Source of the DNA: an uncultured Gemmatimonadales bacterium
GTDB lineage: Bacteria > Verrucomicrobiota > Kiritimatiellia > CAXMRT01
Assembly (NCBI GenBank): GCA_964196025.1
Contig: CAXMRT010000214.1
Coordinates: 5,233 to 69,232, forward strand
Direction of reading: 5' to 3'
DNA: 64,000 nucleotides
Shown: one piece after another, positions 6,444 to 62,278 of the stretch
Layout of the letters: every line of letters begins with the position of its first letter
Numbering within the stretch: position 1 is the first letter of the stretch
Notes under the pieces: model-generated
Databases searched by the model: none
The model's input: the letters and a program-made list of their open reading frames with translations, nothing else
What the model was told of the DNA's origin: nothing
Program-made: the position numbers and the translations under genes

Positions 6444-6793
6444 CGAAGCCCCGTCCCTCTGCGCCCGACCGGTCGACAGCGGAATCCCTCATACCAACAA
6501 CAACATTTTCCCCCATTTTTCCCTAGAATGAGTCATATTCTTCTCTATTATAGGTAGGTTGAGTGGCAAGTGGTTCGCGAAGTCGCGACCTTGCCATGGA
6601 AACACTTATGCGTGTTCGCAACAGGACTCCGAGTCAGGACCACTCGGAACACCCGCACGAAGCGACAAAACAGGGCGATAGTGATACACGTGCCCTAACT
6701 GAAGATGAACACGTATCGTCGCGTGACTGGGGATCCAGCACAAACACGAGACATCGTCGACCCGCCTCACGGCATTGGAATGAAGGAAGTTGT

Positions 6794-8335: not shown

Positions 8336-10905
8336 TGCAGCAGGCGCGCCTTAGCTTCCGAGTAACACCGAACCCTCTTCGTTCGGCCTGCGCCATCCTG
8401 CTGATCAGCGCCCTATCCGGCGGCTGCGGACGCGAACCTGCACCCATAGAAAGCGAACACGTGTGGACCGTCGAAGCTCCACCCGCGGCCTTAGTGCTCA
8501 CCCTCGAAGGCGCTGTCGGGAATCTCCGCGAGGAAATCGTGAAAGCACCTGTTGAACAACTGCGCTTAAAGCAACTCGCCAAAATTGGCGAGATAATGGA
8601 GCCCGGTGCGGTCGTCGTTGAGTACGACACCGACTGGCTAGATCTCTGGATCAAGAGCAACGACGAACATCTCGCGCTCATCGAACGTCGGCTACGCGCA
8701 ACAAAACTCAGTGATCAAAAACGGCGCTATGGCCTGAACGATGACATTCTCGCAAAGGAAACAACTCGAACGGCGAAGCGCCTTGAGATCGAAGAGTCAA
8801 AAACGGTCGATCATCCAGAAAGGGCGATCCTTGAGCGTAGCCTAAAACAGGCAAGAGAACGCTTAGAGACCGCTCGACTCACTCTAGAGGCGCTCAAGAA
8901 GGTCGAGGCCGTAGGAGGCGCATCGGCTGCAGAAGTCCGCACAGCTATGGTGACGTACGAACAAGCGGTCGTCGGAATCAAAATGCCAGAAGTTCGGCTC
9001 ATGGAATTCGATCGAGAGGACGGTAGCGATGACCGCGTACGCCTGGAACAAGAACTCGACTGGCTCAATCTACTCCTGAGAGACGACAAGCAATTCGGCT
9101 CCTTGCGCAGCGAGCTCTCCCGCGCCGTCGCGAAACAAGATCGCGATAAACGAGGCCTCGTGAGCGAGCACCAGCGCCTTTCGGAGGGCGCCGAAGAGGC
9201 CATCCAAGCCTCTACCAACCCCGTCTATCGGACAGAGTCAGGCGGGCTGGTCGCGCCCTCCGACAACGGAGCCGGCGTCCCGATGGTGCCCGGTGCAGCA
9301 CTCGGTGCTCGGAGGATTGTCACCATCATCTCCCCCGGCGACCCGGTCATCGAAGTCAGAGTTCCCGAAGCGATGCGGAACTCTATCCGCCTCAATGAGG
9401 GCGATCAGTGGCTGGTCCGAGTCCGTATCCCCTCACTCGGGGCCCAATGGCTACAAGGAAAACTCACATCGATCAGTCCCGTGAAGGAGTATCGACGCGG
9501 GGGCAGCCCCTACTATAGAGGAAAAGTGGTTCTGGCTTCATCCCCGACCACACTCAGCCCCGGAGTGTCCGCGGTTTGCGAATTAACCTTCCCTGTCCCA
9601 TCCACCGCGGTCGTGATCCCTAGCTGGTGGGCCACACGCGACTTCCGTCCCGTCGCACATCTGGCTTCCGGAAAAAAACAGCGCCTGGTTGCACAGCGGC
9701 TCGGCGACAATCTGCTCGTCACGCGCGGACTCTCTGTCGGGACCAAAGTATTACCCCCCAAGCCAGAGACCGAACGACCACTAATCTTCTACTCCACTGT
9801 CTACTCCTCCGAAAACGATCGCATCGTCGTAAAAGGCTCGGGCTGGGAATGGGCGATCGAAGAACTGGTCGACGATGGCACCTATGTCGAAGCTGGCCAG
9901 GTCGTCTGCCGACTCAGGCGCGTATACGGTCGAAAAGTGCGCGACAATGCCGCCGACCTCGCGAAGCTCCGCGCAGACCTCGGTCTACAGCTGAGCCGCA
10001 TGAATGCAAACGGGGCCCTCGGAGATGCCTTCATGAATTGGCAGCAGGCACTGGGCGCCACCGAAACCAAACGGCTTGCCTATTTGCGGCTTCGTACGAA
10101 AGTGAACGATGTCGCTCTCGCTCAAGCGGAGTCCGATGCCGCACTAGCCGATATCAACCACCGCCAAGTGAAGGCTGACTTCGTCCGATTTTCAGCTCCA
10201 GTCTACGCGGAACTTCGTTCTGAAAATCAACACCGTCAGGACAAGCTCAACATGCAGGTGGGTGGACTTCAATATGAGAAATCGGCCATCGCTGCTGCAG
10301 CGACCCGGCAAGCTCGCATTTGGGACAACGTCCAATACGCTCGTCAAAACTGGCGGATGGCCGCTGACAACGCCACAGTCCTTGACCATGGCTATCAACA
10401 AGCCCGTATCACCCACCGAACGAAGATCGCTAGCGCCGAAGCGAAGCATGTCGACCAAATGAGAGAGGTCGAAGAACTTATTCTCGAGGCTGGGTCACTC
10501 GAACTCACCGCGCCGGTCTCCGGCCGCCTCCACTACAATCCCAAATGTTGGCGCGCTCCCGCCATCGGCGTCACCACCTACACACCCCACCTCTTCAATA
10601 TTCCCCGAGGCACAGAGCGAGAATTTTCCATCCACGTCCCCGGACGCCTCTATCAAGTTCTCAAAGTGGGCCAAGAACTCTCTTTGTACCTGCCCGCAAA
10701 CGGCTCGAAAAAGCTCACCGGGAAAATCACGCACATCGCCGATTATTTCGAAAAACGTCGCGGCAATCGCGGGGGCCGCGGCTCCAGCGATCAAGAAGCG
10801 ACAGTCGACGACGAAAAAACCGTCAAAATTCAAGTGGCATTTTCCGCCCAAAACGAACGAACGGCTCTCCCCGGCGCCACCGTGGTCGTGGAGATCGAGC
10901 CGTGA
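8335..10905 (+). CDS. Periplasmic adaptor (MFP/HlyD-like) lipoprotein with two adaptor modules in tandem
   Basis: Lipobox (LSGGCG). Two successive units of barrel-sandwich, long coiled-coil and beta-barrel; the first ends ...LVAQRLGDNLLVTRGLSVGTKVL, the second ...LPGATVVVEIEP. Stop overlaps the next start (GTGA). Confidence 0.6.
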   Translation: MQQARLSFRVTPNPLRSACAILLISALSGGCGREPAPIESEHVWTVEAPPAALVLTLEGAVGNLREEIVKAPVEQLRLKQLAKIGEIMEPGAVVVEYDTDWLDLWIKSNDEHLALIERRLRATKLSDQKRRYGLNDDILAKETTRTAKRLEIEESKTVDHPERAILERSLKQARERLETARLTLEALKKVEAVGGASAAEVRTAMVTYEQAVVGIKMPEVRLMEFDREDGSDDRVRLEQELDWLNLLLRDDKQFGSLRSELSRAVAKQDRDKRGLVSEHQRLSEGAEEAIQASTNPVYRTESGGLVAPSDNGAGVPMVPGAALGARRIVTIISPGDPVIEVRVPEAMRNSIRLNEGDQWLVRVRIPSLGAQWLQGKLTSISPVKEYRRGGSPYYRGKVVLASSPTTLSPGVSAVCELTFPVPSTAVVIPSWWATRDFRPVAHLASGKKQRLVAQRLGDNLLVTRGLSVGTKVLPPKPETERPLIFYSTVYSSENDRIVVKGSGWEWAIEELVDDGTYVEAGQVVCRLRRVYGRKVRDNAADLAKLRADLGLQLSRMNANGALGDAFMNWQQALGATETKRLAYLRLRTKVNDVALAQAESDAALADINHRQVKADFVRFSAPVYAELRSENQHRQDKLNMQVGGLQYEKSAIAAAATRQARIWDNVQYARQNWRMAADNATVLDHGYQQARITHRTKIASAEAKHVDQMREVEELILEAGSLELTAPVSGRLHYNPKCWRAPAIGVTTYTPHLFNIPRGTEREFSIHVPGRLYQVLKVGQELSLYLPANGSKKLTGKITHIADYFEKRRGNRGGRGSSDQEATVDDEKTVKIQVAFSAQNERTALPGATVVVEIEP

Positions 10906-13904
10906 ACAAATGTTTCACCGCCCACACGTGTTTGATGGCGATGGCATTCGCAACCCACCTACTGTGTGCCGAACCAGACTCGACCCCTTTAGCCAAACCC
11001 CTCCTTTGGACGGCTCCCGATATCAGCCTCCCTGTAACCGTTCAGGTTCAAGGAAAAGTCGAAACAATCCGGTCGAGCATTGTCGAAATGCGGCCCGGCA
11101 GCCCCGACGCAATGACCGTCTGGAAATGCCCCGATGGCATGAAAGCACACATGGGTGACGCTCTTTTTCGAATGGATACAACTACCCTGCAAAATGACTA
11201 CTTCACGCTCCTCGATGACTTCGCAAGTAAACGTATGCTGCTAGAGAGGGCGCGGCTCGAGGGTGAAAAAGAACTCTTCCAGATGAAAGAAGATCTAGCC
11301 CTCGAACTCATGGTCCTCGGTGTCGCCCGCTCCACGGCGGCAGCAGCGGTTGCCGCGGACGACAGTGAAACAGAGATCTCTCGTCAGCAGATCGGGGTTG
11401 CAAAACGCAATGTCGACGTGCAAGCAGCCGAATTATCCCGCAAACGTACACTTCTCGCTCTCGGACAAGAGACGCGCATCCGAATCGAAGACCTGGAGCT
11501 CGCGCTCTCAGCCGCTCGACGCGAAATACGGGTTCGCGAACTAGCCCTCGAAGAAATTGGCGACGGGAGCGACAGAGTCGTCGCACGCCGCGCCCTTTGG
11601 GATGTCACACGACTCGAAGCGGCCTTCGGAGACGGCGCCGATTTCGAAACACTAGAAGACACGCTCGAGAATAACGAGATCGTCGACTTCCAGACAACTC
11701 TTGCTGGCGACTTAGAGAGCATCAGAGGGGGCCTACTCGCCGTTGAAGCGGAACTCCAAGAACTCGCTCGTGGCAGCTGGCCTCACGTACCTCTCCAGAA
11801 ATTGACGATCGCGAACGCCACAGGCGTGGTTCGCACACTGAGCCTCAATGCTCCGCGCGCAACAGAACTCTACAGTAAAAAACAGGGGGCCGGCTGGATC
11901 ACAGCCCCGAGCATCTATCCCTCCAGCCAAGCACTGGTCGTCCAGGGCATGGCAGCGTGGCAGTGCGACCTCCCGCCCGGAGAGTATACGCTGACCTTCA
12001 TGATAGGAGACACCGACGAATGGGGGTGCATGCTCGTGAAAGCTGCGGAGCAAGTGGTCGTAGCCCTCCATCGCTTGGAACCCGAACAAATAGAAACCCT
12101 TAGCGCCAAGGTACACGTGGGCAAGGACGGACTCCGACTCAACTTCGGCTTGCCTCAGAAATCGATCATCGCCCCCGTCGAATGCACCGTCAAAAATCAG
12201 AGCTGGAATCGCCTTGGCCAAAGGATCAGACGCAACTCGCCTGCCCTCTACATTATCCCAGACCCAAAACTAGTCGTGAAAAGCCGAGTGCATCACCTTC
12301 AGGTACCGTTTTTCGAAGGCGCAACTGGGGTCGACCTCCAGATTGAACTCCGAGACAGCAATGGCACATGGGTCCCTGCGGGGAAGGTGTCTGTTGGGGA
12401 CCAACCCATTCCATTCTTCGAAGACGAGGACGAGAGCACTAGCCACCGGCGTTCGAGACGACGCCCTCGCTCAAGTGACGGAGACGGCGAAACGGACCCC
12501 GCGGCACGCACCGCTCGCGAAGTCAGCATCACGGTGCCCAAAGAATATCGGAATGGTTTCGTGTCCGAGTCTCATGTCGACGCGCGCGTAACGGCCTCGC
12601 CTCGCTCAAACACGATCGTTGTCCCCGCGCATTTGGTTCATCAAGGAGAGGACGGTTTAAATGTCCAAGAGGCGGGAGCCACCGTTCGAGTAACCGGGAC
12701 CCGACTCGACGAACATGTGTTTGTGACGGCTGGGCTCACGACGGGAGCCACTCTCGAAATACCGACCGTCGACACGGTCAACGAAGATGCCGACCGCTTT
12801 ACCGGTGGAGTGATCGCAGGAGCCACAACCCCCATTCTCGCACGTCACGACTCCTGGGCGCGCGTCGAAACAATGTTGCCCCACGGCAGTGCAGTGAAAA
12901 AGGGCGACCTAGTCATGCAGATTTTTAGAAACAAACAAGCCGATCAATACAGAAAGGCCGACTCCTCCGCCGCCCAGTCCATCGCCAAATACAAAAAGTC
13001 AGTCGCGCGCCGCAAAGCAACCTTCGACAAACACAAGAAGACCCACGCCGATGCGGTCTACAAGGAAAAGCTCGCGGCCGACCGCGTCGCAGAACACCGC
13101 CGCCGAGACCTAGCAGTTCTGGCCTCCGCAAAAGACAAGAAACAGGAAACAGCCGAACAGCTCGAACTCGTCTCAACACGCGTGCAGGCGTTGAGCGGCC
13201 TCGACTCGTCCCGCCTTGAGCACGACTCTTATAGCAGGCAACAGGATATTCTCCTGTTAAAAACAAAACAGCATAGCCTCAACGAAGTCGCCACCTATCG
13301 GAACTCGGACTATACGGCCCAGCTGCAGGACCGCATGAACTGGGGACAGGCTCGAAAGACACTCACCCGTCGAGAGGCCGGCATCGCTCTAAACCTGAAA
13401 CAGCAGGCGCTGCAAAGCCAACAAGCCCGAAGCGTGCTAGAGCGCGGGGTCGAACAAAACATGCTAAGTAAGGACTTCGAGAGAAACCGTCGCCTGTATG
13501 CGCCCGTCGATGGTCACGTGTTCTATGGCCACGGATACAATGACCTGATGAAGCGCATGGGTCGACTCGACATCGACTTTGTGGTCTGGCAAGGCCTCAA
13601 AATCGCGGACGTACTAGACCTTTCCAACCTCTCCCTTAAAGTGAGCTTACCGGAGCGCTTCTATGATTCACTCCACCTTGACCTAGAGCTCCCCATTGAA
13701 TTAGAAGATTTGGAAGGAAGAAGTGTGCTCGGGCGAGTCATAGATAAGGGCCGAGTGCTGTACTCTCCCAGTGACAGTGAAGACGCTGAGAATGGCGTCA
13801 TTTCCGTTAGTCGCAATTTCGACGTGGTGCTGGCGTTCAGCGTGCCTGAGGATCTGGTTGGACGTATCAAACCCGGACTAAGAGGATCGGTAACCGTAAA
13901 ATGA
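10902..13904 (+). CDS. Second tandem-duplicated periplasmic adaptor (MFP/HlyD-like) with very long coiled coils
   Basis: The same-frame ORF extends upstream to 10545 (an Arg-rich, spurious-looking stretch overlapping the previous gene). A plausible start is GTG 10902 (overlapping the stop) or ATG 10935. Contains MFP C-terminal signature blocks twice (…NVQEAGATVRVTGTRLDEHVFVTAGLTTGATLEIP and …VPEDLVGRIKPGLRGSVTV). ATGA overlap with the next gene. Confidence 0.55.
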   Translation: MNKCFTAHTCLMAMAFATHLLCAEPDSTPLAKPLLWTAPDISLPVTVQVQGKVETIRSSIVEMRPGSPDAMTVWKCPDGMKAHMGDALFRMDTTTLQNDYFTLLDDFASKRMLLERARLEGEKELFQMKEDLALELMVLGVARSTAAAAVAADDSETEISRQQIGVAKRNVDVQAAELSRKRTLLALGQETRIRIEDLELALSAARREIRVRELALEEIGDGSDRVVARRALWDVTRLEAAFGDGADFETLEDTLENNEIVDFQTTLAGDLESIRGGLLAVEAELQELARGSWPHVPLQKLTIANATGVVRTLSLNAPRATELYSKKQGAGWITAPSIYPSSQALVVQGMAAWQCDLPPGEYTLTFMIGDTDEWGCMLVKAAEQVVVALHRLEPEQIETLSAKVHVGKDGLRLNFGLPQKSIIAPVECTVKNQSWNRLGQRIRRNSPALYIIPDPKLVVKSRVHHLQVPFFEGATGVDLQIELRDSNGTWVPAGKVSVGDQPIPFFEDEDESTSHRRSRRRPRSSDGDGETDPAARTAREVSITVPKEYRNGFVSESHVDARVTASPRSNTIVVPAHLVHQGEDGLNVQEAGATVRVTGTRLDEHVFVTAGLTTGATLEIPTVDTVNEDADRFTGGVIAGATTPILARHDSWARVETMLPHGSAVKKGDLVMQIFRNKQADQYRKADSSAAQSIAKYKKSVARRKATFDKHKKTHADAVYKEKLAADRVAEHRRRDLAVLASAKDKKQETAEQLELVSTRVQALSGLDSSRLEHDSYSRQQDILLLKTKQHSLNEVATYRNSDYTAQLQDRMNWGQARKTLTRREAGIALNLKQQALQSQQARSVLERGVEQNMLSKDFERNRRLYAPVDGHVFYGHGYNDLMKRMGRLDIDFVVWQGLKIADVLDLSNLSLKVSLPERFYDSLHLDLELPIELEDLEGRSVLGRVIDKGRVLYSPSDSEDAENGVISVSRNFDVVLAFSVPEDLVGRIKPGLRGSVTVK

Positions 13905-15907
13905 GAAAAATGGCCCTAGCTAGCGTGGCGTGCATCGTCGCAATCATACTCTTCGTCCTAAGCGGCCGGAACGGCGACACGGTACAAACCGAATTTCGGG
14001 CCTTCACGGTAGAACGTGGAGACGTGACAGACGCTCTGCGGACCATCGGCGAGCTAACTCCTCAAGACCCCGTCCTGCTCTACACACCCTTTTCCGGAGA
14101 CATCAATTGGATCGTAGAAGATGGCACGTGGGTAAAAAAAGGTGAACGCGTTTTCAGTCTCGACGAAAAATCCCTGGTGGAACAAGTCTCCACAATGCGA
14201 GCCAATGTCGTGGCACAACGCCAACAACTCCGTCTCGCCATCCTGCAGGCCGGACAAACAGAGCTGGCCGAACAAGAACGCCTAGAAACCATCAATCAGA
14301 CCCTGCATCTGATCAAGCTGCGACACCGCATTTTGACCACCCAACCCAAGGGCGGCAACCGCCTAGTCGAACTCGACTCTCTCGTAAAGCCAATCGAAGC
14401 GCGTCTTCAAACACTCCAGACAGAACTCGAACCCCGCGATCAACGCTACCGCGACACGCGCAGGGTCTACCTGTCCGCCCTCCAAGGATGGCAGGAAAGT
14501 CGCGGCGCTCTACTCGAACTTCAGGCCAAGTCCGACTTTGCCAAAATCACAACCGAAGAGACCATGAGTAAAGAGGTACGCGACCCTGCCGCTAAGAAAG
14601 AAGGTGAAAAAGTGGTCGCCGACCTCGCGCGTGCAAAGGAACTGGGCAATACCCTCCAAAAAGCCTTGGCGGCGGCACGCACGGACTATGACAAGGCACG
14701 CGCGCCCTATGAAGCGGCGGTCGCGGCGATCGAAAAAATTGATTCAGATGCTCAAGAACTCTACGTCGAAATCGAAATCGAAAAACGCGGCCTCTCCGCC
14801 ACCCGCCTCGCTATCGATCGCGACATTGCCAAATTGCAACTCGCCGAAGCTGATCGTAAAGTAGTCAGTGGCAAACGAGCACTTGCCGCGGGTGCTCTCT
14901 CACAAACACAAGCTGATCAACTCATCATAACCGCTAAAGCGCGACGTGATCAGCTCAAGATTCTCGGTCTCCAATACGAGATCGCCGCCCGCCCAGCAAC
15001 AGAAGACGTCGTCGCAGCATCGGAGTCCACCCTCGCAACCGCACAACGCGCAGTTGAGAATGCGCAAACGGTCTACCATCGCGAAATGGGCATCGTGAGC
15101 AACAACATCTCTGTACTAGAAGCGGAGCTGGCAAAGGGAATCGGGGAACTGGACCGCAAGGGCACGGGCTTTCCTGGCGCCATCAAGGGAAGCATCTCCA
15201 TGCTCGAGTCGGAGCTGGAACTTCTGACTGCTGTGGAAACCGAGCGCAAGAAGGAAATTGAGGCTGAACTCACTCAACTTAAAGAAGAGTACGCAGCAGC
15301 CGAAGCAAACCCCGGAAACGTTGTACTTTCACCTAGTGACGGCCTGGTTCGGCTGCGCGAACGCGAAGGTCGCGATACCGATGTCGGTGACAGCTGGAGA
15401 GAGAGAGAAACCCTGGCCATGCTCTATCCGCCGGAAAACATGTCGGTCAAAACAGGTATCAACGAAGTAAACCTTCGCTCCGTAGCCGTCGGCATGCCAT
15501 GCCGCGTTCGGGTCCCCGCTCTCGACATGGAGATTCCGAACGCCAAAGTCGCCCATGTCGCTCGGATCGGTCGCGACAAAGATCAGGACGATGGCGCATA
15601 CAGTCAGAGCACCTCTGGCGTCATAGTCTTTACCCTAACCGTCGATCTCGGCCGTGATGTAGAAGCCTTTCGACAAGGCATGACCGTACACATCGAAATC
15701 GAAACGGGACGACAAAACAATGTCCTGCATCTACCCGCCGCAGCCATTCAGACGGGACCCGACGGCTTCTCCGTCCAGCTGAACAAAAACGGTGGCGCAC
15801 GCACACACGTCGAAGGCGCTGCCTTCGGGGACGATACATTTATCATTACGAGCGGCCTCGCGCAGGGCGATGTGGTCTACCGCGAATACCCCACCTTGGA
15901 CGACTAA
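13901..15907 (+). CDS. Membrane-anchored periplasmic adaptor (HlyD/MacA-like) with ~400-aa coiled coil
   Basis: N-terminal TM anchor (ALASVACIVAIILFVL), barrel-sandwich domain, extended heptad-rich region, and canonical MFP C-terminus (…HLPAAAIQTGPDGFSVQLNKNGGARTHVEGAAFGDDTFIITSGLAQGDVV). Confidence 0.7.
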   Translation: MRKMALASVACIVAIILFVLSGRNGDTVQTEFRAFTVERGDVTDALRTIGELTPQDPVLLYTPFSGDINWIVEDGTWVKKGERVFSLDEKSLVEQVSTMRANVVAQRQQLRLAILQAGQTELAEQERLETINQTLHLIKLRHRILTTQPKGGNRLVELDSLVKPIEARLQTLQTELEPRDQRYRDTRRVYLSALQGWQESRGALLELQAKSDFAKITTEETMSKEVRDPAAKKEGEKVVADLARAKELGNTLQKALAAARTDYDKARAPYEAAVAAIEKIDSDAQELYVEIEIEKRGLSATRLAIDRDIAKLQLAEADRKVVSGKRALAAGALSQTQADQLIITAKARRDQLKILGLQYEIAARPATEDVVAASESTLATAQRAVENAQTVYHREMGIVSNNISVLEAELAKGIGELDRKGTGFPGAIKGSISMLESELELLTAVETERKKEIEAELTQLKEEYAAAEANPGNVVLSPSDGLVRLREREGRDTDVGDSWRERETLAMLYPPENMSVKTGINEVNLRSVAVGMPCRVRVPALDMEIPNAKVAHVARIGRDKDQDDGAYSQSTSGVIVFTLTVDLGRDVEAFRQGMTVHIEIETGRQNNVLHLPAAAIQTGPDGFSVQLNKNGGARTHVEGAAFGDDTFIITSGLAQGDVVYREYPTLDD

Positions 15908-15920
15908 CAGGAATGCACGA

Positions 15921-17921
15921 ATGAGTAAGCCGACGACCAAAACTGAAAACACACCGCTAATCCGTATTCGCGACCTAACGCGTCACTACCACATGGGCCA
16001 ACACACGGTACGCGCTCTCGACGGAATCGATCTCGACATCCACTCTGGCGAATTCGTCGCAATCATCGGCCCCTCCGGCAGCGGCAAGTCGTCCTTAATG
16101 TATATCCTGGGCTGCCTCGATCGTCCGACCAGCGGTCAGTACTCACTCGACGACAAGGAAGTGTCCACCGTTTCCGACCTTCAGCTCTCTCGTACTCGAA
16201 ACCGCGATATCGGCTTCATCTTTCAAGCCTACAACCTGCTCTCCGAATTGAGCGTATTGGAAAACATCGCCCTAGGCCTAGTCTATCGTGGGGCCCCCCG
16301 CCGCGAGCGGCTCGCCTCCGCCGCGGTCCTTGCCGATAGAATGGGCCTCGACGGTCGCCATGATCACCGCTCAAATGAACTCTCAGGTGGCCAGATGCAG
16401 CGCGTGGCCATCTCACGCGCGCTCGCAGGCTCTCCCCACTTGCTCCTCTGCGACGAACCCACGGGCAACCTCGACTCGGTCACCGGCCGCGAAATCATGA
16501 ACGTCTTTCACGAACTCCACGCCCAGGGCAATACGATCATCATCGTCACGCACGACCCTAAAGTGGCCGCTCAAGCCGAGCGCGTGGTTCGCATCGAAGA
16601 TGGGAAAATAGTCTCGGATGAGAAACAGGACGCCGCGAAAAAACCGGCTATGCAAGCCAAGCCCCCACAAGAGACCAAGAACGTGCACTGGCTAGATATC
16701 GCCCGTATTGCGATCAGGGAAGGACTCTTGGCTCACAAACTGAGAAGTCTTCTCACGATGCTCGGCATCGTGTTCGGTATCGCCTCGGTCATCGGCATGA
16801 CCGCTATTACAGAAGGCGGTAAACAACAACAACTTGAACAAATCCGACAGATCGGACTCAACAATATCCAACTCATCGATACAGAGCTCGATGGTCAACG
16901 CCTGAAGGACGCTCGACAACGCAACCCCTTCGGCATCAGCGATAGAGATATCGCGGCGATCCGACGCGAACTCCCCGAGGTCGACCGCCTAGCCGCCTGG
17001 AAAAGCATCAAGGCAGTCGTCACCCGCAACAGTACGCGGGCAGATGAAGCTCGCGTCATCGGTGTCCGTGGAGACTTCGAAGAGGTCGTCAACTTTTTCG
17101 TCGGCCAAGGACGCTTCCTCAACCAACGCGACGCCGACGAATACAGACGCGTCTGTGTCCTCGGCACCGACATCGCGCGCGCGCTAGAGATCGACGATGA
17201 CCCACTGGGCAAAACGGTTGTTGTCGGGGATCAACTTTTTGTGGTGGTAGGCGTGATGCAAAACCGGCCTTTCACAGCCAGCACAGTGAAGGACGTCAAC
17301 ATCGTGAACCGCAATCTCGACCTCTATCTCCCCCATGCGGTCGCCGACCGCTACTATGAGCGTGCCAAGCGCTCAGGCATCTATGAGTCGATATCAATGC
17401 GCATGACCTCAAGCGATCGGCTGCTCTCAGACTCTCATCACATCGAACGCGTCATCCGCAGCCTTCACAATGAAGCCGCCGATTTCGCGGTCTCTGTCCC
17501 ACTCGAAAACCTTCGGCAATCCCAGAAAACCAAAGAAGTCTTCAACGTCATCATCATTGTCATCGCGGGAATGTCCCTTCTCGTTGGCGGAATCGGCATC
17601 ATGAACATCATGCTCGCCAACGTCAGCGAGCGAACTCGCGAAATTGGTATTCGTCGCGCGGTGGGGGCCCCAAAAAACGAGGTCCTGAAACAGTTCCTCG
17701 CTGAAGCATGCGTCATCTCAATTCTCGGCGGTATCCTCGGAGTCTTCACCGGTGTCCTCGGCGGGGAACTCGTCGCAATCCTCTTCGCCTTTCCTGTGGC
17801 CTACAACCTCTGGATCATGGCCATCAGCGTCGGCGTTGCCATGACCGTCGGAATCGGCTTCGGTCTCTACCCCGCATGGACAGCTGCCCGCATGGATCCT
17901 GTCGACGCTCTGCGCTCGTAA
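15921..17921 (+). CDS. macB: MacB-type ABC transporter (fused ATPase plus FtsX-like permease)
   Basis: ATG at 15921 lies 14 nt after the upstream stop; the ORF tool's longer 15792 start overlaps the previous gene. Walker [10 protein letters not shown], signature LSGGQMQR, Walker [13 protein letters not shown], then TM1, a periplasmic domain and an FtsX-like 3-TM bundle (…IGIRRAVGA…DPVDALRS). Confidence 0.85.
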
Positions 17922-17987: not shown

Positions 17988-19457
17988 ATGGTATTCAGTT
18001 CCCTTCTGTTTCTATTCTACTTTCTACCTTTTGTTCTCGCCGCATACTACTTGGCAGTCAAGGTCGGCCGCCGGCCATCTCACCTTGTTCTAACCGCTCT
18101 TAGCTATCTCTTCTACGGCTGGGCAAACCCCGCATTCGTCCTGCTGATGCTCGGCTCCACGATGGTCGACTACCTCTGCGGACTCGTGATTTCTGAACAA
18201 TGGGGAAAAACCTCCAACACCGACTCTTGCCCCGCGCTTACCCCCAAAGGCGCTCGGTCCCGCAAACAACGCTGGGCTCTCGCCCTCTCCATCATCACCA
18301 ACCTTTCTCTGTTAGGCTTCTTTAAATACTTCAACTTCGGCATGGATAGCTGGAACGCGGTCATGTCCGGCATGGGCTTCGATGGCGCAAGCTACGAAAA
18401 CTTCCTGCGCATCACGCTGCCTCTCGGTATCAGCTTTTACACATTCCAATCGATGAGCTATTCGATCGACGTCTATCGCGGCGAGGCCCGAGCCATTCGC
18501 AACCCACTCGACTTCGCCTGCTACGTCGCACTCTTCCCACAACTTGTGGCGGGCCCGATCATCCGATTTCAGGAAGTCGCAGAACAACTCCGAGAACGCA
18601 CCCACACGGTCGACAAATTCGCCCGAGGCATCACCTTCCTCATGCTCGGCTTAACCAAAAAGGTGCTGCTTGCGGATCCCTGCGGGAAGATCGCAGATGA
18701 ATGCTTCGGTGCCGCGGGGCTATACGCCATCGATGCCTGGGCCGGCATCATCGGCTACGCCTTTCAAATCTACTTTGACTTCAGCGCCTACTCGGACATG
18801 GCCATTGGACTCGGACTAATGTTCGGCTTCATCTTCCCCAAGAATTTCGATTCCCCCTACCACGCCCGCTCAATCACAGAATTCTGGCAACGATGGCACA
18901 TCTCACTTTCCACCTGGCTGCGCGACTACCTCTACATCCCACTCGGCGGCAACCGAAAGGGTGACGGGCGCACCTACGTGAACCTCGCAATGGTCATGCT
19001 TCTAGGCGGACTCTGGCACGGCTCCTCTTGGAACTTTGTGATCTGGGGCGCGATTCACGGAACAATGCTGGCCGCTGAACGCATGATGGGAAAGAACTCC
19101 TTCTACGCACGACTACCCAAACCTCTCTCCATCGGCATCACCTTCCTCGTCGTCTGTGTCGCATGGGTCTTCTTCCGCGCTGCGACGCTTGGCGACGCGA
19201 CCACCTACCTCGCCGCCATGTTCGGCATGGGGGTCGACACGACCGCCGCCGGCCTCGTCTCTGGCCTCGCCTTCACTCCCTATCACCTCGCCACTCTCGT
19301 GCTCACTGCGGTCATCGTCTGGGCGGGGCCACAAACGTGGGACTTCACACGCGTCCTGACATGGCCTAAGGCCGTCGCAATCACACTCTGCTTCATTCTC
19401 GCTTTAACGCTTCTCGCTGCCACTAGCTTTCACCCCTTCATCTACTTTATCTTCTAA
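17988..19457 (+). CDS. MBOAT-family membrane-bound O-acyltransferase (AlgI/DltB-like)
   Basis: Multi-TM protein with MBOAT signature regions (FYTFQSMSYSIDVYRG; WHISLSTWLRDYLYIPLGGNRKG; conserved His). Located 66 nt downstream of macB. Confidence 0.85.
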   Translation: MVFSSLLFLFYFLPFVLAAYYLAVKVGRRPSHLVLTALSYLFYGWANPAFVLLMLGSTMVDYLCGLVISEQWGKTSNTDSCPALTPKGARSRKQRWALALSIITNLSLLGFFKYFNFGMDSWNAVMSGMGFDGASYENFLRITLPLGISFYTFQSMSYSIDVYRGEARAIRNPLDFACYVALFPQLVAGPIIRFQEVAEQLRERTHTVDKFARGITFLMLGLTKKVLLADPCGKIADECFGAAGLYAIDAWAGIIGYAFQIYFDFSAYSDMAIGLGLMFGFIFPKNFDSPYHARSITEFWQRWHISLSTWLRDYLYIPLGGNRKGDGRTYVNLAMVMLLGGLWHGSSWNFVIWGAIHGTMLAAERMMGKNSFYARLPKPLSIGITFLVVCVAWVFFRAATLGDATTYLAAMFGMGVDTTAAGLVSGLAFTPYHLATLVLTAVIVWAGPQTWDFTRVLTWPKAVAITLCFILALTLLAATSFHPFIYFIF

Positions 19458-19458
19458 T

Positions 19459-22230
19459 ATGACATCTTCACCCACAGAGCCTAAAGAAACGCACTCGGAT
19501 CTCCGTGCAAAAAGGCCAGCTCGCGAAGAGCAGGCGTGGCAAGAAATTGGCGTCACCCGTTTCGCGCCCGGCGTACAATCATTTTTCATGGTGAGCTTCC
19601 TACTCCTTCTAGTCACAGTCCCTATCTTTCAATTCATGGTGAGAGATGACGACTACGCACGCCTGAGCGGCGCAAATCAACTGACCACAGAGGCCGCTAC
19701 CGGCACCCACATTTCAGCCATTATATCGGATCTCTCGACGCCTCCTGACTCAAACGGAGTCTACAACGACTTTCTCATGCGACTTCATCTAACCGATGTA
19801 CGCTCAGCCCTCGACCCCGCTCATCCGCGCGAATTACTGCTTGTCACAATGAGCATGCGCAACCGCATGGTCGGCCCCATCGCTCGTGCAAAACCTGGCG
19901 ATAGAATAGATGTGCATATCCAAGACTGGGACGCAGTGGCCAAGACACACAGCAGCATCAATGGGTCCACGCTCGACGAGGACCGCTTTCTCACGATGGA
20001 CGCCTACTACGGGACCGGAATCACAATCGACGGACTCAAGACCCTCCCCAGCGGCAGCGATTTCATGAAGGTGTGGGCCGGTGAAGGCTCCGCTCTGCCT
20101 TCCACCGCTCGTGAAGGAATCGTCTCTGGAATGCGCTCGGCATGGGCATCCGGCAACTCCCCGCTTGATCGTTTTCTTGCGGCCAACAGTCACCTCGCAC
20201 AACGCACGAAGCTGTATGAAGAGGCTCTCGACGATCAGGCCCTACTCAGCCTATCGCTTCGTCCCCCCATCCAAGCACTGCTCACCTCACTAGGCGTTGG
20301 GAACGAGAAGGCGACCGTGGGTCGCAAGCAATGGCTCTTTTTTACTCCCGGCATCCACTCCCTTACCGGACTAGGCTTCCTCGACCCAGCACACCTCAAG
20401 CAGCGCATTCGCAGCGGCGGTAACACCGACACCGCACCGCAACCGGATCCACGCAAGGCGATCGTTCATTTTCGCGACCAACTCGCAGAACGCGGCATCG
20501 AGCTTCTTCTCGTTCCCACGCCGATCAAGCCTAGCATTCATCCAGAATACCTTTCTGGCCGCATGACAGACGTCGACGATCCTGTCCGCAATCGATCCTA
20601 CTCATCGTTCGTCCAGGAACTCAAAAGCCTTGGCGTACACATCTACGACCCTGCCCCGCTCCTCAAAGAAAGGAGCTCGCAGTCAGCGCAATACCTCGCC
20701 ACGGATACGCACTGGCGACCCGACGCGATGACCGCAGTCGCAAAAGAACTCGCGAGCGTTGTGAAGCGCCTAGCTCCCAGTGACGTGTCTGTGGCATGGA
20801 AACAGACTGCGACCTCCCACACTCAACACGGTGACATTGCGACCATGCTCGAGCTCCCCGACTGGCAAGGGACGATCCCAACGGAAACCATCATGACCCA
20901 CTCCGTCACCGATGAGAATGGAGCCCCCTGGCAACCCGATTCAAACGCCGATGTTCTCCTGCTTGGGGATAGCTTCGCTAACATCTATAGTCTTGCAGGC
21001 ATGGGATGGGGGGCACACGGCGGCCTCGGAGAACATCTTTCCTATCACCTGAAACGACCCCTCGACCGACTATCCCGTAACGATGCCGGCGCACACACTT
21101 CCCGTCAGATGCTGGTCGATGCATTGACTCGCGATCCTAGCCGTCTGAACAATAAGCGCGTCGTCATCTGGCAATTCGCGGAGCGCGAGCTCGCCCTCGG
21201 CGATTGGAAAATCCTGCCCCTACCCACTGAGGACATGACACCGCCACCGGTCACCCCGCCCGTCGCCGCATCTACCAACAGCGCCTTCGCGCAAGTGCTT
21301 GCACAGGCTAAAGAGGCCCCGGTAATTCAAGGCGACGATGACTGGTTATTTCTCACCAAGGAACTTCTTCACCTAACCCTTCCACCGTTCTGGGGCGAAC
21401 ACGCGGAGTCGAAGGACAAGGACCCGCTGCACAGTATCGGTGATCTCCACAAAAAGCTGGCCGGCCTGGGCATCGATCTCATACTTCTGCCTGCACCTCC
21501 GCGCTCGGTCATTTATGCGGATAAACTTCTTCCAGAGACGGCCCTGAATCCCAACGGCATTCCGCGCCGAACCGATCCCAACCTTCACGCCTTCTACTCA
21601 GATCTCCGAAAAATGGGCGTCACCGTCATCGACGTGACCGATGCCTTCCTCGCCGCTCGTAAACACGACGACACTCTCGGCCCCGTCAGCTGCAAACAAG
21701 ACTCACACTGGTCGCCGCGCGGACTCAAAATTGCGGCCGATGCCGTTGTCGCCCATATCGGCAAGCCGGCGTGGATGAGTCCCGCCGAAGACCTCGTCAC
21801 CCAAAAACAAGACTCACTCAGCTATGTCGGTGATCTCGTCGCACTGATGCCCGGCCATCTCGAAACCCGCAGCACGACGACGATCACACGCATCACTTCA
21901 GACGCACCAGGCTCTTCACCGCTTGCATTTAATGATGCTAGCCCCGTACTTATCCTTGCCGATAGTCACGGCCTTGTGTTCTCGGCCGGCGCCGATATGC
22001 ACAGCACCTCCGCGGGTTTTGCTGAACATGTTTCGGCTGGCCTCGGTTTCTCCGTGGACCTAATGGCCGCCCGCGGTTCCGGTTCACAAGTCCGGCGATC
22101 CCTCGCGCGACGCTTTATCCGGAACCCTGACCAAGCCGCCCAAAAGCGAGTCCTTATCTATACCTTTGCCGCCCGAACCTTTACCGGCCCAGACGGGTGG
22201 AAAACGGTTCCGCTATCCAAATCTAAATAA
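19459..22230 (+). CDS. Membrane-anchored protein with two tandem AlgJ/AlgX-like (DHHW-type) SGNH domains
   Basis: ATG one nt after the MBOAT stop. N-terminal TM anchor. Two repeated halves each carry a D-x-H-W motif (LATDTHWRPD encoded around 20704-20715; KQDSHWSPRG around 21700-21711) like AlgJ/AlgX/DHHW partners of MBOATs. Confidence 0.6.
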   Translation: MTSSPTEPKETHSDLRAKRPAREEQAWQEIGVTRFAPGVQSFFMVSFLLLLVTVPIFQFMVRDDDYARLSGANQLTTEAATGTHISAIISDLSTPPDSNGVYNDFLMRLHLTDVRSALDPAHPRELLLVTMSMRNRMVGPIARAKPGDRIDVHIQDWDAVAKTHSSINGSTLDEDRFLTMDAYYGTGITIDGLKTLPSGSDFMKVWAGEGSALPSTAREGIVSGMRSAWASGNSPLDRFLAANSHLAQRTKLYEEALDDQALLSLSLRPPIQALLTSLGVGNEKATVGRKQWLFFTPGIHSLTGLGFLDPAHLKQRIRSGGNTDTAPQPDPRKAIVHFRDQLAERGIELLLVPTPIKPSIHPEYLSGRMTDVDDPVRNRSYSSFVQELKSLGVHIYDPAPLLKERSSQSAQYLATDTHWRPDAMTAVAKELASVVKRLAPSDVSVAWKQTATSHTQHGDIATMLELPDWQGTIPTETIMTHSVTDENGAPWQPDSNADVLLLGDSFANIYSLAGMGWGAHGGLGEHLSYHLKRPLDRLSRNDAGAHTSRQMLVDALTRDPSRLNNKRVVIWQFAERELALGDWKILPLPTEDMTPPPVTPPVAASTNSAFAQVLAQAKEAPVIQGDDDWLFLTKELLHLTLPPFWGEHAESKDKDPLHSIGDLHKKLAGLGIDLILLPAPPRSVIYADKLLPETALNPNGIPRRTDPNLHAFYSDLRKMGVTVIDVTDAFLAARKHDDTLGPVSCKQDSHWSPRGLKIAADAVVAHIGKPAWMSPAEDLVTQKQDSLSYVGDLVALMPGHLETRSTTTITRITSDAPGSSPLAFNDASPVLILADSHGLVFSAGADMHSTSAGFAEHVSAGLGFSVDLMAARGSGSQVRRSLARRFIRNPDQAAQKRVLIYTFAARTFTGPDGWKTVPLSKSK

Positions 22231-60526: not shown

Positions 60527-60565
60527 TCCACTTCTCCAGCTCTCCAGCTCTTCAGTTCTTCACTT
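60527..60565. repeat. CCCGTCCACTTC + TCCAGCTC octamer tandem array
   Basis: GTCCACTTC TCCAGCTC TCCAGCTC TTCAGTTC TTCACTTC. Related to the array at 63236-63287. Confidence 0.7.
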
Positions 60566-62140: not shown

Positions 62141-62278
62141 ACAAATCCCCTTAAGTTGAAGAATCACAGTACACACCACCCTCCCAACATTCAACCCCAT
62201 CATACAACCCGCACCCAAACCCGCGTTTACCACAACGCAACCGAGAATACACCCTAACCGCGTGGGCTGCTTCCCTAC

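What the first reader, a model, noticed from the sequence alone, without database searches (positions are those of the whole stretch)
17988..22230. MBOAT followed by a 923-aa protein with two DxHW (AlgJ/AlgX/DHHW-like) domains
MBOAT plus a periplasmic SGNH/AlgX-like partner is the standard two-component O-acyl transfer module (AlgI/AlgJ, PatA/PatB, DltB/DltD). Here the partner is duplicated in one polypeptide with motifs DTHW and DSHW, and the pair is embedded in an efflux operon. That arrangement could couple acylation to export of the substrate.
Basis: partly seen in the sequence, partly recalled or inferred. Interest (0 to 1): 0.6.

Follow-up and report, generated by a model that had tools for sequence, protein, structure and literature searches.

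The report
MBOAT plus fused AlgJ/AlgX-like acetyltransferase
This is a two-gene sugar-polymer O-acetylation module in which two partner enzymes that are usually separate genes are joined into one protein; it sits next to an efflux pump operon, but relatives give no sign that the two are linked.

Summary
ORF 17988-19457 is an MBOAT. ORF 19459-22230 (923 aa) carries two AlgX-family (PF16822) SGNH-like domains, each with an intact Asp-x-His-Trp and Ser.

The interpretation needs two corrections. First, the large protein is not an internal duplication. Its halves are 25% identical to each other. Each half is 37-59% identical to one of two separate, usually adjacent genes elsewhere: a membrane-anchored "A" gene and a secreted "B" gene. 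It is therefore a gene fusion, comparable to joining AlgJ and AlgX. A third, OB-like domain sits at the C-terminus of split A proteins but has moved to the N-terminal side here.

Second, the efflux link is not conserved. None of 86 related MBOAT loci has the pump. The one close relative of the pump operon (60-82% identity, same five genes) has unrelated genes after MacB.

The MBOAT ends in FIYFIF, the FXYXXF acyl-shuttle motif. The likely mechanism is acetyl-CoA to MBOAT-Tyr to the Ser of A and/or B to an unknown extracytoplasmic glycan.

The family is large (583 or more species genomes, over ten phyla) and uncharacterised. Fusions arose repeatedly. Verdict: a new architectural variant of a known kind, of modest interest.

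The parts
17988..19457 (+). MBOAT acyltransferase gene (489 aa), polytopic membrane protein
   Evidence: Pfam PF03062 at E 3e-35. Aligns to DltB structures 8jem/6bug at E 1e-28. Several hydrophobic segments. An MBOAT gene lies directly upstream of the A-type gene in 83 of 86 related loci.
19011..19031 (+). LWHGSSW block containing the MBOAT invariant catalytic His (His344)
   Evidence: Aligned to the 'WHG' His of DltB. The role of this His in PatA and DltB is described in PMC12148441.
19437..19454 (+). C-terminal hexapeptide FIYFIF, matching the FXYXXF acyl-shuttle motif (Tyr486)
   Evidence: Sequence. All 88 orthologous MBOATs end in FIYFxF. The motif and the acetyl-Tyr intermediate were shown experimentally for PatA in PMC12148441.
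19459..22230 (+). 923-aa fusion protein. Domain order: cytoplasmic tail, one TM helix, OB-like domain, helical linker, ALGX domain A, Pro-rich linker, ALGX domain B.
   Evidence: AlphaFold2 model has mean pLDDT 81.3.
19519..19557 (+). Conserved N-terminal motif (A)REEQAWQEIGVT, just before the TM helix
   Evidence: Invariant or near-invariant R22, E23, A26, E29, G31, T33 in 20 fused and split homologs. The cytoplasmic location is inferred from the AlgJ-like type II topology.
19558..19647 (+). Single transmembrane anchor (aa 34-63)
   Evidence: It is the only hydrophobic segment found by a Kyte-Doolittle scan. The AF2 model has a helix at aa 39-60.
19705..20028 (+). 'SMALL' five-stranded OB-like beta-barrel domain (aa ~83-190). 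It is homologous to the C-terminal domain of split A proteins, so its position is permuted here.
   Evidence: BLASTP to P0054 aa 463-554. Alignment A5. AF2 model pLDDT 90, pTM 0.83. The best PDB matches are all OB folds, but they are weak: E 0.03-0.3, TM 0.4-0.5. No Pfam hit. Position statistics.
20311..21228 (+). ALGX domain A (aa ~285-590), ortholog of the membrane-anchored AlgJ-like gene
   Evidence: PF16822 at E 3.6e-30. 46% identity to P0054. The A-family profile matches AlgJ 4o8v at E 1e-16. pLDDT is mostly 87-96.
20518..20535 (+). TPIKPS: the P-x-K signature of AlgJ (P355, K357)
   Evidence: Invariant in A1 and A3. Aligned to AlgJ 'vPaKa'. AlgJ P132/K134 are signature residues (PMC4148444).
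20704..20715 (+). DTHW: catalytic Asp416 and His418 of domain A
   Evidence: Invariant. Aligned to AlgJ TDTHW, D190/H192.
20965..20973 (+). GDS: putative nucleophile Ser505 of domain A
   Evidence: G503, D504 and S505 are invariant. It aligns with ADS of domain B, and the B block aligns with AlgJ GTS Ser288. The direct HMM alignment of A to AlgJ does not cover this block.
21229..21267 (+). Pro-rich flexible linker (aa 591-603, ...TPPPVTPPVAAS) at the fusion junction. It replaces the signal peptide of stand-alone B proteins.
   Evidence: pLDDT < 50 for aa 592-602. The stand-alone Desulfonatronum B protein has a hydrophobic N-terminus before the homologous region.
21268..22227 (+). ALGX domain B (aa ~604-923), ortholog of the secreted AlgJ/AlgX-like gene that usually follows the A gene
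   Evidence: PF16822 at E 1.7e-24. 37% identity to the Desulfonatronum 377-aa gene. 54-59% identity to stand-alone B proteins. The B-family profile matches AlgJ at E 8e-20.
21700..21711 (+). DSHW: catalytic Asp748 and His750 of domain B
   Evidence: Invariant D, H and W in A2. Aligned to AlgJ D190/H192.
21958..21966 (+). ADS: putative nucleophile Ser836 of domain B
   Evidence: Invariant D and S in A2. Aligned to the AlgJ GTS block containing Ser288.
6563..17921 (+). Neighbouring unit, probably not part of the system: an efflux operon. Genes: OEP 6563-8335; HlyD-like 8335-10905, 10902-13904 and 13901-15907; MacB 15912-17921.
   Evidence: Pfam and NCBIfam hits. Same five genes in the same order in L095 without the MBOAT cassette.

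Best explanation
The two genes form a self-contained MBOAT/SGNH-like O-acyl (most likely O-acetyl) transfer module for an extracytoplasmic glycan, of the AlgI/AlgJ/AlgX type.

Proposed path. The MBOAT takes an acyl group from a cytoplasmic acyl-CoA, using His344. It loads the group onto Tyr486 of its C-terminal FIYFIF shuttle peptide at the outer face of the membrane. The 923-aa protein is anchored by one N-terminal helix and lies otherwise in the periplasm. It takes the acyl group onto the Ser of an AlgX-type Asp-His-Ser triad and passes it to the polymer.

The protein is a fusion of two old paralogs that are separate, adjacent genes in most relatives: A (membrane-anchored, like AlgJ) and B (secreted, like AlgX). 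The most likely order is a relay from MBOAT-Tyr to A-Ser505 to B-Ser836 to the glycan. The covalent linker would do what the adaptor AlgF does in Pseudomonas. The OB-like domain is a candidate polymer- or partner-binding module.

Shown: the domain families, conserved catalytic residues, the shuttle motif, the fusion origin, the conserved MBOAT-A(-B) gene order and the non-conserved efflux neighbourhood.

Inferred: acetyl as the group transferred, the order of transfer, the role of the OB-like domain, and a glycan as target. The polymer itself is unknown.
For: MBOAT: PF03062. The catalytic His aligns to DltB. FIYFIF matches FXYXXF and is present in 88/88 orthologs. The motif's function was shown for PatA (PMC12148441).

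Both ALGX halves score above the Pfam threshold. The full-length AF2 model matches AlgJ 4o8v (E 2.5e-15, TM 0.76 on the target), AlgX 4knc/7ula (E 3e-12) and PatB1 (E 7e-7). D-x-H-W and D-S are invariant in both families and align to AlgJ D190/H192/S288.

Fusion origin. Of 86 related loci, 83 have the MBOAT directly upstream; 37 have A and B as adjacent genes; 11 have A and B fused, in two different domain orders. In an NJ tree the window type forms one clade, while the A-SMALL-B fusions are scattered among split genes. This indicates repeated fusion and therefore joint function. Among the best 150 cluster representatives, 49 are A-(SMALL)-B fusions and 4 have the window's order.

Precedent: AlgJ does not bind polymer and AlgX does (PMC4148444). 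AlgF bridges AlgJ and AlgX (PMC10641220).

Glycan context in some relatives: GT2, GT4, epimerase and DegT genes beside the cassette.
Against: No biochemical data exist for any member of this family.

The window holds no glycosyltransferase, polymerase or exporter for a polysaccharide in 64 kb. The neighbours of the cassette vary widely, so the substrate is unidentified.

The oxyanion Tyr of AlgJ/AlgX (Y348/Y328) is not conserved: it is Glu577 in A and Thr907 in B. The P-x-K lysine is Arg682 in domain B.

24 of 86 loci have A but no B within 10 kb, and a B gene can be an orphan. So A alone may suffice as a transferase, and the relay order is not established.

The inter-domain geometry of the model is uncertain (pTM 0.53).
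Confidence: 0.65

Rival explanations
1. Parallel action rather than a relay. Both ALGX domains take the acyl group directly from the MBOAT shuttle peptide and act as terminal transferases, either on two positions (as O2 and O3 in alginate) or on two different polymers.
For: Both domains keep complete triads. 24 of 86 loci have A only, and B can be an orphan gene, which suggests each can work alone. Proteins with three ALGX domains exist.
Against: In the one studied system, AlgJ and AlgX are non-redundant and only AlgX acetylates the polymer (PMC4148444). A and B are distinct, anciently diverged families with fixed topologies, one anchored and one secreted.
Confidence: 0.22
2. The cassette is functionally part of the MacB/HlyD/OEP operon, and it acylates the molecule that the pump exports (or the pump exports the acylated product).
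For: Same strand, with a 66-nt gap after MacB and no terminator-like site between them. Coupling of acetylation to export has a precedent in the alginate AlgKX complex (PMC9734138; PDB 7ula found).
Against: 0 of 86 related cassette loci carry OEP or HlyD homologs, and MacB-like genes are only sporadic and distant. Six contexts of fused relatives annotated with Pfam show no efflux genes. The only close relative of the operon (L095, 60-82% identity, five genes in order) has unrelated genes after MacB. A sulfatase gene remnant abuts the 3' end of the cassette, which points to a local rearrangement. Caveat: the operon side of the test rests on a single relative.
Confidence: 0.07
3. One of the two domains is an O-acetyl esterase that trims or regulates the modification, as Ape1 does next to PatA/PatB, and is not a transferase.
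For: AlgJ and AlgX both show acetylesterase activity in vitro (PMC4148444). The oxyanion Tyr is replaced in both domains. GDSL-type esterase genes occur near the cassette in only about 7 of 86 loci, so a built-in esterase is conceivable.
Against: The closest sequence and structure relatives are transferases, not Ape-type GDSL esterases. The A and B genes are co-inherited with the MBOAT as a unit.
Confidence: 0.08
4. The 923-aa ORF is a recent internal tandem duplication, or an assembly or frameshift artefact that merges two genes.
For: Two copies of one Pfam domain lie in one ORF. One relative (L015) has the fused gene broken into two ORFs.
Against: The halves are only 25% identical. Each half is closer to a different gene family. 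The same SMALL-A-B architecture with a Pro-rich linker is found in at least 12 independent assemblies at 41-57% identity, and these form one clade.
Confidence: 0.02

Closest known systems
Alginate O-acetylation machinery AlgI / AlgJ / AlgF / AlgX of Pseudomonas (structures 4o8v, 4knc, 7ula)
   Same: An MBOAT gene is followed by AlgX-family, circularly permuted SGNH-like proteins. One is membrane-anchored (like AlgJ) and one soluble periplasmic (like AlgX). The D-x-H-W and Ser triad and the P-x-K signature are present. AlgJ and AlgX are the best sequence and structure matches.
   Different: The two SGNH-like proteins are fused into one chain. There is no AlgF. There is no C-terminal CBM on the AlgX-like part; instead an OB-like domain is attached to the AlgJ-like part. 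The oxyanion Tyr is not conserved. No alginate synthesis or export genes are present (alg8, alg44, algK, algE, algG, algL). Sequence identity to AlgJ and AlgX is only 14-23%.
PatA / PatB peptidoglycan O-acetyltransferase of Gram-negative bacteria (PMC12148441)
   Same: An MBOAT with a C-terminal FXYXXF acyl-shuttle Tyr is paired with a periplasmic Ser-His-Asp transferase. It is a stand-alone small cassette not embedded in a polymer-synthesis operon.
   Different: PatB is described in PMC12148441 as an SGNH-family protein, and no PatB structure appeared among my sequence or fold matches, so it was not compared directly. No Ape1-type esterase gene is adjacent here. There are two transferase-like domains instead of one.
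Bacillus cereus PatA1/PatB1 and the DHHW family (5v8d/5v8e, 4nzk)
   Same: An MBOAT partner with a permuted SGNH-like fold and a D-x-H-W block. It is a detectable structural relative (E 7e-7 to 2e-5). In PatB1 an Arg contributes to the oxyanion hole, and an invariant Arg lies at the analogous block here.
   Different: No DHHW Pfam or NCBIfam hit. The block motifs are GDS/ADS and DTHW/DSHW, not KDS and TDHHW (PMC9487903). The DHHW family is described from Bacilli and Clostridia.
Cellulose acetylation WssF/G/H/I (Pseudomonas fluorescens) and CcsH/I (Clostridia)
   Same: An MBOAT (WssH, CcsH) plus an AlgJ-like transferase (WssI, CcsI) acting on a secreted glycan (PMC10302187, PMC7710045; listed).
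   Different: Those genes are embedded in cellulose synthase operons. No bcs or wss genes are present here. They contain a single AlgJ-like domain.
The uncharacterised three-gene cassette MBOAT / A-SMALL / B (e.g. Desulfonatronum lacustre KI912608.1; NCBI name 'alginate O-acetyltransferase AlgX-related protein')
   Same: These are direct orthologs: MBOAT 62%, A 46% and B 37% identity, with the same order and tight spacing.
   Different: A and B are separate genes, B has its own signal peptide, and the OB-like domain is at the C-terminus of A. In the window protein it precedes A, and B is joined through a Pro-rich linker.

Membership tests
AlgX family of SGNH-like proteins (Pfam ALGX, PF16822) | Profile HMM score above the curated gathering threshold (26.5 bits), for each half separately | tested here: met
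   First half 106 bits (E 3.6e-30). Second half 87.4 bits (E 1.7e-24).
AlgX family of SGNH-like proteins (Pfam ALGX, PF16822) | Circularly permuted block order: the D-x-H block precedes the nucleophile Ser block | tested here: met
   D416/H418 come before S505, and D748/H750 before S836. The permuted order is defined in PMC4148444 and PMC9487903.
AlgX family of SGNH-like proteins (Pfam ALGX, PF16822) | Asp-His-Ser triad aligned with AlgJ D190/H192/S288 | tested here: met
   Domain B: all three residues align in the profile-to-4o8v alignment. Domain A: D and H align. Ser505 is placed by invariance and by the colinear A/B alignment of GDS with ADS; the direct alignment of this block to AlgJ was not obtained.
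AlgX family of SGNH-like proteins (Pfam ALGX, PF16822) | Block III Tyr as oxyanion-hole donor (AlgJ Y348, AlgX Y328) | tested here: not met
   AlgJ FPERYL aligns with FAEREL in A (Glu577) and FAARTF in B (Thr907). The preceding Arg is invariant.
AlgX family of SGNH-like proteins (Pfam ALGX, PF16822) | Fold similarity to solved AlgJ and AlgX structures | tested here: met
   Foldseek: 4o8v E 2.5e-15 with TM 0.76 on the target; 7ula and 4knc E ~3e-12. The model has pLDDT 81. Which of the two domains gave each match is not reported.
AlgJ (alginate system), orthology | N-terminal membrane anchor, gene directly after the MBOAT gene, P-x-K signature | tested here: met
   One TM helix at aa 34-63. A 1-nt gap after the MBOAT gene. 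P355 and K357 are invariant. These are resemblances of the A part, not proof of orthology.
AlgJ / AlgX (alginate system), membership in an alginate locus | Located within an alginate biosynthesis operon (alg8, alg44, algK, algE, algG, algL, algF) | tested here: not met
   No such genes were found among the ORFs of 200 aa or more that were scanned across the 64-kb window. None appear in the Pfam-annotated contexts of relatives.
AlgX (alginate system) | C-terminal carbohydrate-binding module after the SGNH-like domain | tested here: not met
   Domain B runs to the C-terminus at aa 923. The only extra domain is the OB-like SMALL domain, which is N-terminal here.
DHHW family (Pfam DHHW; B. cereus PatB1, 4nzk) | Profile HMM match and the block motifs KDS and TDHHW | tested here: not met
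   No DHHW hit in Pfam at E <= 1 for either half, and none in NCBIfam. The motifs are GDS/ADS and DTHW/DSHW. The structural match is only distant: PatB1 E 7e-7, 4nzk E 2e-5.
Bacterial polymer-acylating MBOAT (AlgI / PatA / WssH type) | MBOAT profile match and the invariant catalytic His | tested here: met
   PF03062 at 122.5 bits against a cut-off of 27. His344 aligns with the DltB WHG His.
Bacterial polymer-acylating MBOAT (AlgI / PatA / WssH type) | C-terminal FXYXXF acyl-shuttle hexapeptide on an extension absent from DltB | tested here: met
   The protein ends in FIYFIF, as do 88 of 88 orthologs. Homology to DltB ends at aa ~362 of 489. The motif is defined in PMC12148441.
DltB / DltD D-alanylation system | DltB equivalog score, plus DltA, DltC, DltX and DltD partners | tested here: not met
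   TIGR04091 scores 165 bits against a cut-off of 375. No Dlt partner genes are present near the pair.
   0 of 86 cassette loci have HlyD or OEP homologs. The syntenic pump operon in L095 lacks the cassette.
Any of the above | Demonstrated O-acetyl transfer to a defined polymer | not testable with these tools
   This needs genetics and biochemistry. No characterised member of this subfamily was found in the literature searches.

The most novel reading that the evidence does not exclude
In this lineage the MBOAT/fused-ALGX cassette may have been captured behind the three-adaptor MacB pump and be co-transcribed with it. An envelope glycolipid or polymer handled by the pump would then be O-acylated in the periplasm as it is exported. 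That would be a non-canonical counterpart of the AlgKX modification-secretion coupling, built on an ABC tripartite pump. The evidence argues against a conserved link but cannot exclude a lineage-specific one.
Probability: 0.07. Interest if true: 0.7.

Novelty: new variant of a known kind. Interest (0 to 1): 0.35.

Why it matters
MBOAT plus SGNH-like O-acetylation of envelope polymers is well understood only in a few pathogens (alginate, peptidoglycan, cellulose, secondary cell-wall polysaccharide). In the alginate system it is still unclear why two SGNH-like proteins are needed and in what order the acetyl group passes.

This window belongs to a large uncharacterised branch of that machinery. 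It is found in at least 583 species-level genomes across Verrucomicrobiota, Kiritimatiellota, Lentisphaerota, Planctomycetota, Acidobacteriota, Desulfobacterota, Armatimonadota and others. In this branch the AlgJ-like and AlgX-like partners have fused repeatedly and no AlgF is present.

Such natural single-chain versions are evidence that the two enzymes work side by side. They would also be convenient objects for structural and biochemical tests of the relay model.

The practical result for this finding is more sober. The module is an ordinary polymer-acetylation cassette of unknown target, and the attractive idea of acylation coupled to a MacB pump is not supported by comparative genomics.

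Tried and rejected
1. DHHW membership. There was no Pfam or NCBIfam hit, so it was rejected.

2. Internal duplication. Rejected by reciprocal comparisons.

3. Efflux linkage. Tested from both sides and not supported. My first HlyD2 query (10910-13904) was out of frame and gave a misleading weak hit. The true start is GTG 10902. After redoing it, L095 HlyD2 is 60% identical, and there is still no hit in the cassette loci.

4. Looking for the substrate through conserved neighbours. All-against-all clustering of ORFs from 87 loci found no partner beyond MBOAT, A and B. The best recurrent families were present in 11 loci or fewer: an HZS_alpha/FGE-sulfatase or LamG-type protein, an epimerase, GT2, GDSL, and a hexapeptide acetyltransferase. 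This was inconclusive.

5. Charge of domains A and B as a clue to an anionic substrate. There was no trend.

6. A large mixed alignment (A4) for structure prediction. MAFFT placed the A family on the B half, so it was discarded.

8. Promoter and terminator scan between MacB and the MBOAT gene, and after the cassette. Nothing informative was found.

9. The source contig of the window protein is not on record. The organism is inferred only from relatives labelled Verrucomicrobia.

10. Franklin et al. 2004, on lateral transfer of the algI/algJ cassette, is not held in the library.

Full report
**Observation**

- ORF 17988-19457 (+) encodes a 489-aa polytopic protein that matches Pfam MBOAT (E 3e-35).
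- ORF 19459-22230 (+) starts 1 nt after the MBOAT stop codon and encodes 923 aa. It matches Pfam ALGX (PF16822) twice. Scanned separately, residues 289-605 score 106 bits and residues 606-923 score 87 bits, against a threshold of 26.5 bits.
- The first 288 residues match nothing in Pfam.
- The motifs are DTHW (416-419) with GDS (503-505), and DSHW (748-751) with ADS (834-836).
- No DHHW-family model matches.

Upstream on the same strand lie:
- an outer-membrane efflux protein (6563-8335);
- three long HlyD-like adaptors (8335-10905; 10902-13904, starting at a GTG that overlaps the preceding stop; 13901-15907);
- a fused MacB ATPase-permease (ATG 15912-17921).

Downstream, the next full gene is a sulfatase on the opposite strand.

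**What the 923-aa protein is**

A search of 5.8 billion proteins returned two groups:
- about a dozen full-length relatives of 917-937 aa, at 41-57% identity;
- a very large set of ~570-aa proteins that cover only about 40% of the query.

In Desulfonatronum lacustre the locus reads MBOAT (489 aa), ALGX protein (569 aa), ALGX protein (377 aa), as three tightly spaced genes. The pairwise identities are:

| Window region | Desulfonatronum 569-aa protein | Desulfonatronum 377-aa protein |
|---|---|---|
| aa 238-600 (A half) | 46% | 30% |
| aa 605-920 (B half) | 27% | 37% |

Stand-alone B-type proteins reach 54-59% identity to the second half. The two halves of the window protein are only 25% identical to each other.

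The protein is therefore a fusion of two anciently diverged paralogs. I call them A (membrane-anchored) and B (secreted). It is not an internal duplication. At the junction, the signal peptide of free B proteins is replaced by a Pro-rich linker that the model leaves disordered (aa 591-603).

**A third domain, and its changed position**

Residues ~83-190 are homologous to the C-terminal ~100 residues of the split A proteins.
- This "SMALL" domain has no Pfam model.
- It is predicted with high confidence (pLDDT 90) as a five-stranded barrel.
- Its best PDB neighbours are all OB folds, but only weakly (E 0.03-0.3, TM 0.4-0.5).

Among the 120 first-search homologs that carry it:
- it is C-terminal in 99 (split A proteins);
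- it lies between A and B in 8 (simple end-to-end fusions, "type 2");
- it is N-terminal in 13, all of them the window's architecture ("type 1": TM, SMALL, A, B).

**How widespread, and how the architecture varies**

A scan of one genome per species found at least 583 genomes with a relative. They span Verrucomicrobiota, Kiritimatiellota, Lentisphaerota, Planctomycetota, Acidobacteriota, Desulfobacterota, Armatimonadota, Abditibacteriota, Myxococcota, Thioalkalivibrio and others. The best match (57%) is labelled as an uncultured Verrucomicrobia bacterium.

In 86 non-redundant loci, the MBOAT gene lies directly upstream of the A gene in 83. Two of the three exceptions are at contig ends. The architectures are:

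| Architecture | Loci |
|---|---|
| A and B as adjacent genes | 37 |
| B nearby but not adjacent | 5 |
| A only (no B in the locus) | 24 |
| Type-1 fusion (window type) | 8 |
| Type-2 fusion | 3 |
| A-A' fusion | 2 |
| Cut by a contig end | 7 |

Further points:
- An exhaustive HMMER search of 1.84 billion cluster representatives found 3023 relatives, 1021 of them at E <= 1e-30. Among the best 150 there are 81 split A-SMALL proteins, 49 type-2 fusions, 4 type-1 fusions, and a few proteins with three ALGX domains.
- In a neighbour-joining tree of A domains, type-1 proteins form one clade while type-2 fusions are scattered among split genes (no support values). Fusion of A and B has therefore happened repeatedly. 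This is classical evidence that the two proteins work together.
- A B-type gene can also be an orphan far from any MBOAT.

**Catalytic equipment**

MBOAT:
- His344 aligns with the invariant catalytic His of DltB.
- The protein ends in FIYFIF. All 88 orthologs end in FIYFxF.
- This matches the FXYXXF "acyl shuttle" hexapeptide. For PatA it was shown to be auto-acetylated on its Tyr from acetyl-CoA and to donate the acetyl group to the periplasmic partner (PMC12148441).

ALGX domains:
- A profile of B proteins aligns to AlgJ (4o8v) at E 8e-20. D-x-H-W aligns with D190/H192, and D-S with the GTS block containing Ser288.
- A profile of A proteins aligns at E 1e-16 over the P-x-K and DTHW blocks.
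- The invariant GDS of A aligns with ADS of B in the colinear A/B comparison.
- The full-length AlphaFold2 model (pLDDT 81) matches AlgJ (E 2.5e-15, TM 0.76 on the target), AlgX (E 3e-12), B. cereus PatB1 (E 7e-7) and the DHHW protein 4nzk (E 2e-5).

Differences from AlgJ and AlgX:
- The oxyanion Tyr (AlgJ Y348, AlgX Y328) is Glu577 in A and Thr907 in B. An invariant Arg precedes that position.
- The P-x-K lysine is Arg in the B half.

It is not met: both halves look catalytically competent.

**The efflux neighbourhood**

I tested the proposed coupling from both sides.

From the cassette side:
- None of the 86 related loci contains a homolog of the window's OEP or of any of its three adaptors. 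MacB-like ABC genes are sporadic and distant.
- The Pfam-annotated contexts of six fused relatives show variable neighbours and no efflux genes. The neighbours include three GT4 genes, DegT, LamG proteins, an extra ALGX plus a GDSL protein, and housekeeping genes.

From the pump side:
- A metagenome scan with the third adaptor found one relative, L095.
- It carries OEP (71%), adaptor 1 (67%), adaptor 2 (60%), adaptor 3 (70%) and MacB (82%) in the same order.
- The two genes that follow MacB after a similar short gap are a GH5/3-keto-disaccharide-hydrolase protein and a DUF6288/PDZ protein, not the cassette.

At the 3' edge of the cassette:
- The frame that opens right after its stop codon encodes the signal peptide and first motif of a sulfatase (RPNIILLMTDDQGWGE).
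- This frame has no start codon and has a stop after ~65 codons. I read it as a gene remnant that marks a rearrangement at this point.

The pump operon and the cassette therefore look like two independent units that happen to be adjacent in this lineage. Co-transcription across the 66-nt gap cannot be excluded, because no terminator-like site was detected. The pump side of the test also rests on a single relative.

**Most likely mechanism**

This is reasoned by analogy with PatA/PatB and AlgI/J/F/X.
1. Acetyl-CoA (inferred) is used by the MBOAT to acylate Tyr486 of its C-terminal shuttle.
2. The anchored fusion protein takes the group onto a Ser and transfers it to hydroxyls of an extracytoplasmic glycan.

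In Pseudomonas, AlgJ has esterase activity but does not bind polymer, and AlgX is the terminal transferase (PMC4148444). AlgF bridges the two (PMC10641220). On that basis the favoured order is MBOAT-Tyr to A-Ser505 to B-Ser836 to polymer, with the covalent linker replacing an AlgF-type adaptor. No AlgF homolog appears in any annotated context. The OB-like domain may bind the polymer or a partner protein.

The domain identities, catalytic residues, shuttle motif and gene linkage are shown. The acyl group, the order of transfer and the acceptor are inferred.

The main rival is that A and B act in parallel on two positions or two polymers. It is supported by the many A-only loci and by orphan B genes.

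The target polymer is unknown. The 64-kb window has no polysaccharide synthesis or export genes, and the cassette's neighbours elsewhere are inconsistent. Such a free-standing cassette would fit a housekeeping envelope polymer made elsewhere in the genome, but that is speculation.

**Comparison with known systems and novelty**

The module works like AlgI/AlgJ/AlgX and PatA/PatB. Its SGNH-like domains are members of the Pfam AlgX family. It is not an alginate system, not a Dlt system and not a DHHW/PatB1 system (see the membership table).

Public annotations call relatives "AlgX-related" or "AlgJ". I found no paper that describes this subfamily, its fusions or the OB-like domain, but the library is limited.

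I rate it a new variant of a known kind. The fusion itself is not rare in the family. The window's domain order is a minority form.

**Verdict**

Interest is 0.35. The finding is a solid, ordinary polymer-acetylation cassette. Its added value is the repeated natural fusion of the AlgJ-like and AlgX-like partners and the size of the uncharacterised family.

Noticed in passing
window 6563-17921 (+): A five-gene efflux operon has three different, very long HlyD-like adaptors (856, 1000 and 668 aa; the middle one has no Pfam hit) in front of one fused MacB. The same five genes occur in the same order at 60-82% identity in metagenome contig PVBE010069630.1 (L095). Three adaptors for one MacB pump is unusual, and its substrate is unknown.
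   Followed up: partly
window 22233-22427 (+): There is a remnant of a sulfatase gene: signal peptide plus RPNIILLMTDDQGWGE. It has no start codon, opens right after the stop of the 923-aa gene and ends after about 65 codons. It aligns to the N-terminus of the sulfatase at 55025-56539 (E 2e-7). It probably marks a rearrangement at the 3' edge of the cassette.
   Followed up: partly
window 19519-19557 (aa 21-33 of the 923-aa protein); alignment A1: The motif R-E-E-x-A-x-x-E-[IV]-G-x-T just before the single TM helix is nearly invariant in all A-type proteins, split or fused. It may contact the MBOAT or a regulator. Its cytoplasmic location is inferred.
   Followed up: no
proteins P0154 (1647 aa), P0194 (1473 aa), P0197 (1333 aa), P0204 (1342 aa): These relatives have three ALGX-type domains in one chain (e.g. 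A-SMALL-B-A, A-B-B).
   Followed up: no
P0168 (641 aa), P0188, P0014: These proteins have the window's N-terminal SMALL position but no B domain. P0168 may be an unfused relative of the type-1 architecture, which would bear on the order of the rearrangement and the fusion. The other two look truncated.
   Followed up: no
L003 12811-15194: In one fused relative, the fused gene is followed directly by a third, weakly ALGX-like protein (583 aa, E 1e-5) and a GDSL_2-type protein (207 aa). The latter is a possible accessory transferase or esterase.
   Followed up: no
L093 10001-11050 (P0121): A stand-alone B-type gene, 56% identical to the B half, lies among housekeeping genes with no MBOAT or A gene within 10 kb.
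   Followed up: partly
L045 9140-12574 (-), L001 12839-15013, L003 6401-8383 and about 8 further loci: Large secreted proteins recur next to the cassette in about 11 of 86 loci. They carry HZS_alpha plus FGE-sulfatase domains, or LamG/Tricorn_N-like domains. Any relation to the acetylation target is unknown.
   Followed up: partly
L016 9692-12514 and L017 9704-12454 (Abditibacteriaceae): A different tandem protein occurs here (~920-940 aa): an A domain followed by a second domain that scores better as A than as B (29-33% identity). L016 has no MBOAT within 10 kb, while the same MAG has a B / MBOAT / A locus elsewhere (L092).
   Followed up: no
window 22483-23880, 55025-56539, 58126-59589, 60560-62326 (all -); 23911-24726 and 59684-60361 (-); 47788-48603 (+): The window carries four sulfatases, two 3-keto-disaccharide-hydrolase-domain proteins and an FGE-sulfatase-domain protein. 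This gene content is typical of marine polysaccharide-degrading PVC bacteria and agrees with the Verrucomicrobia labels of the closest relatives.
   Followed up: no
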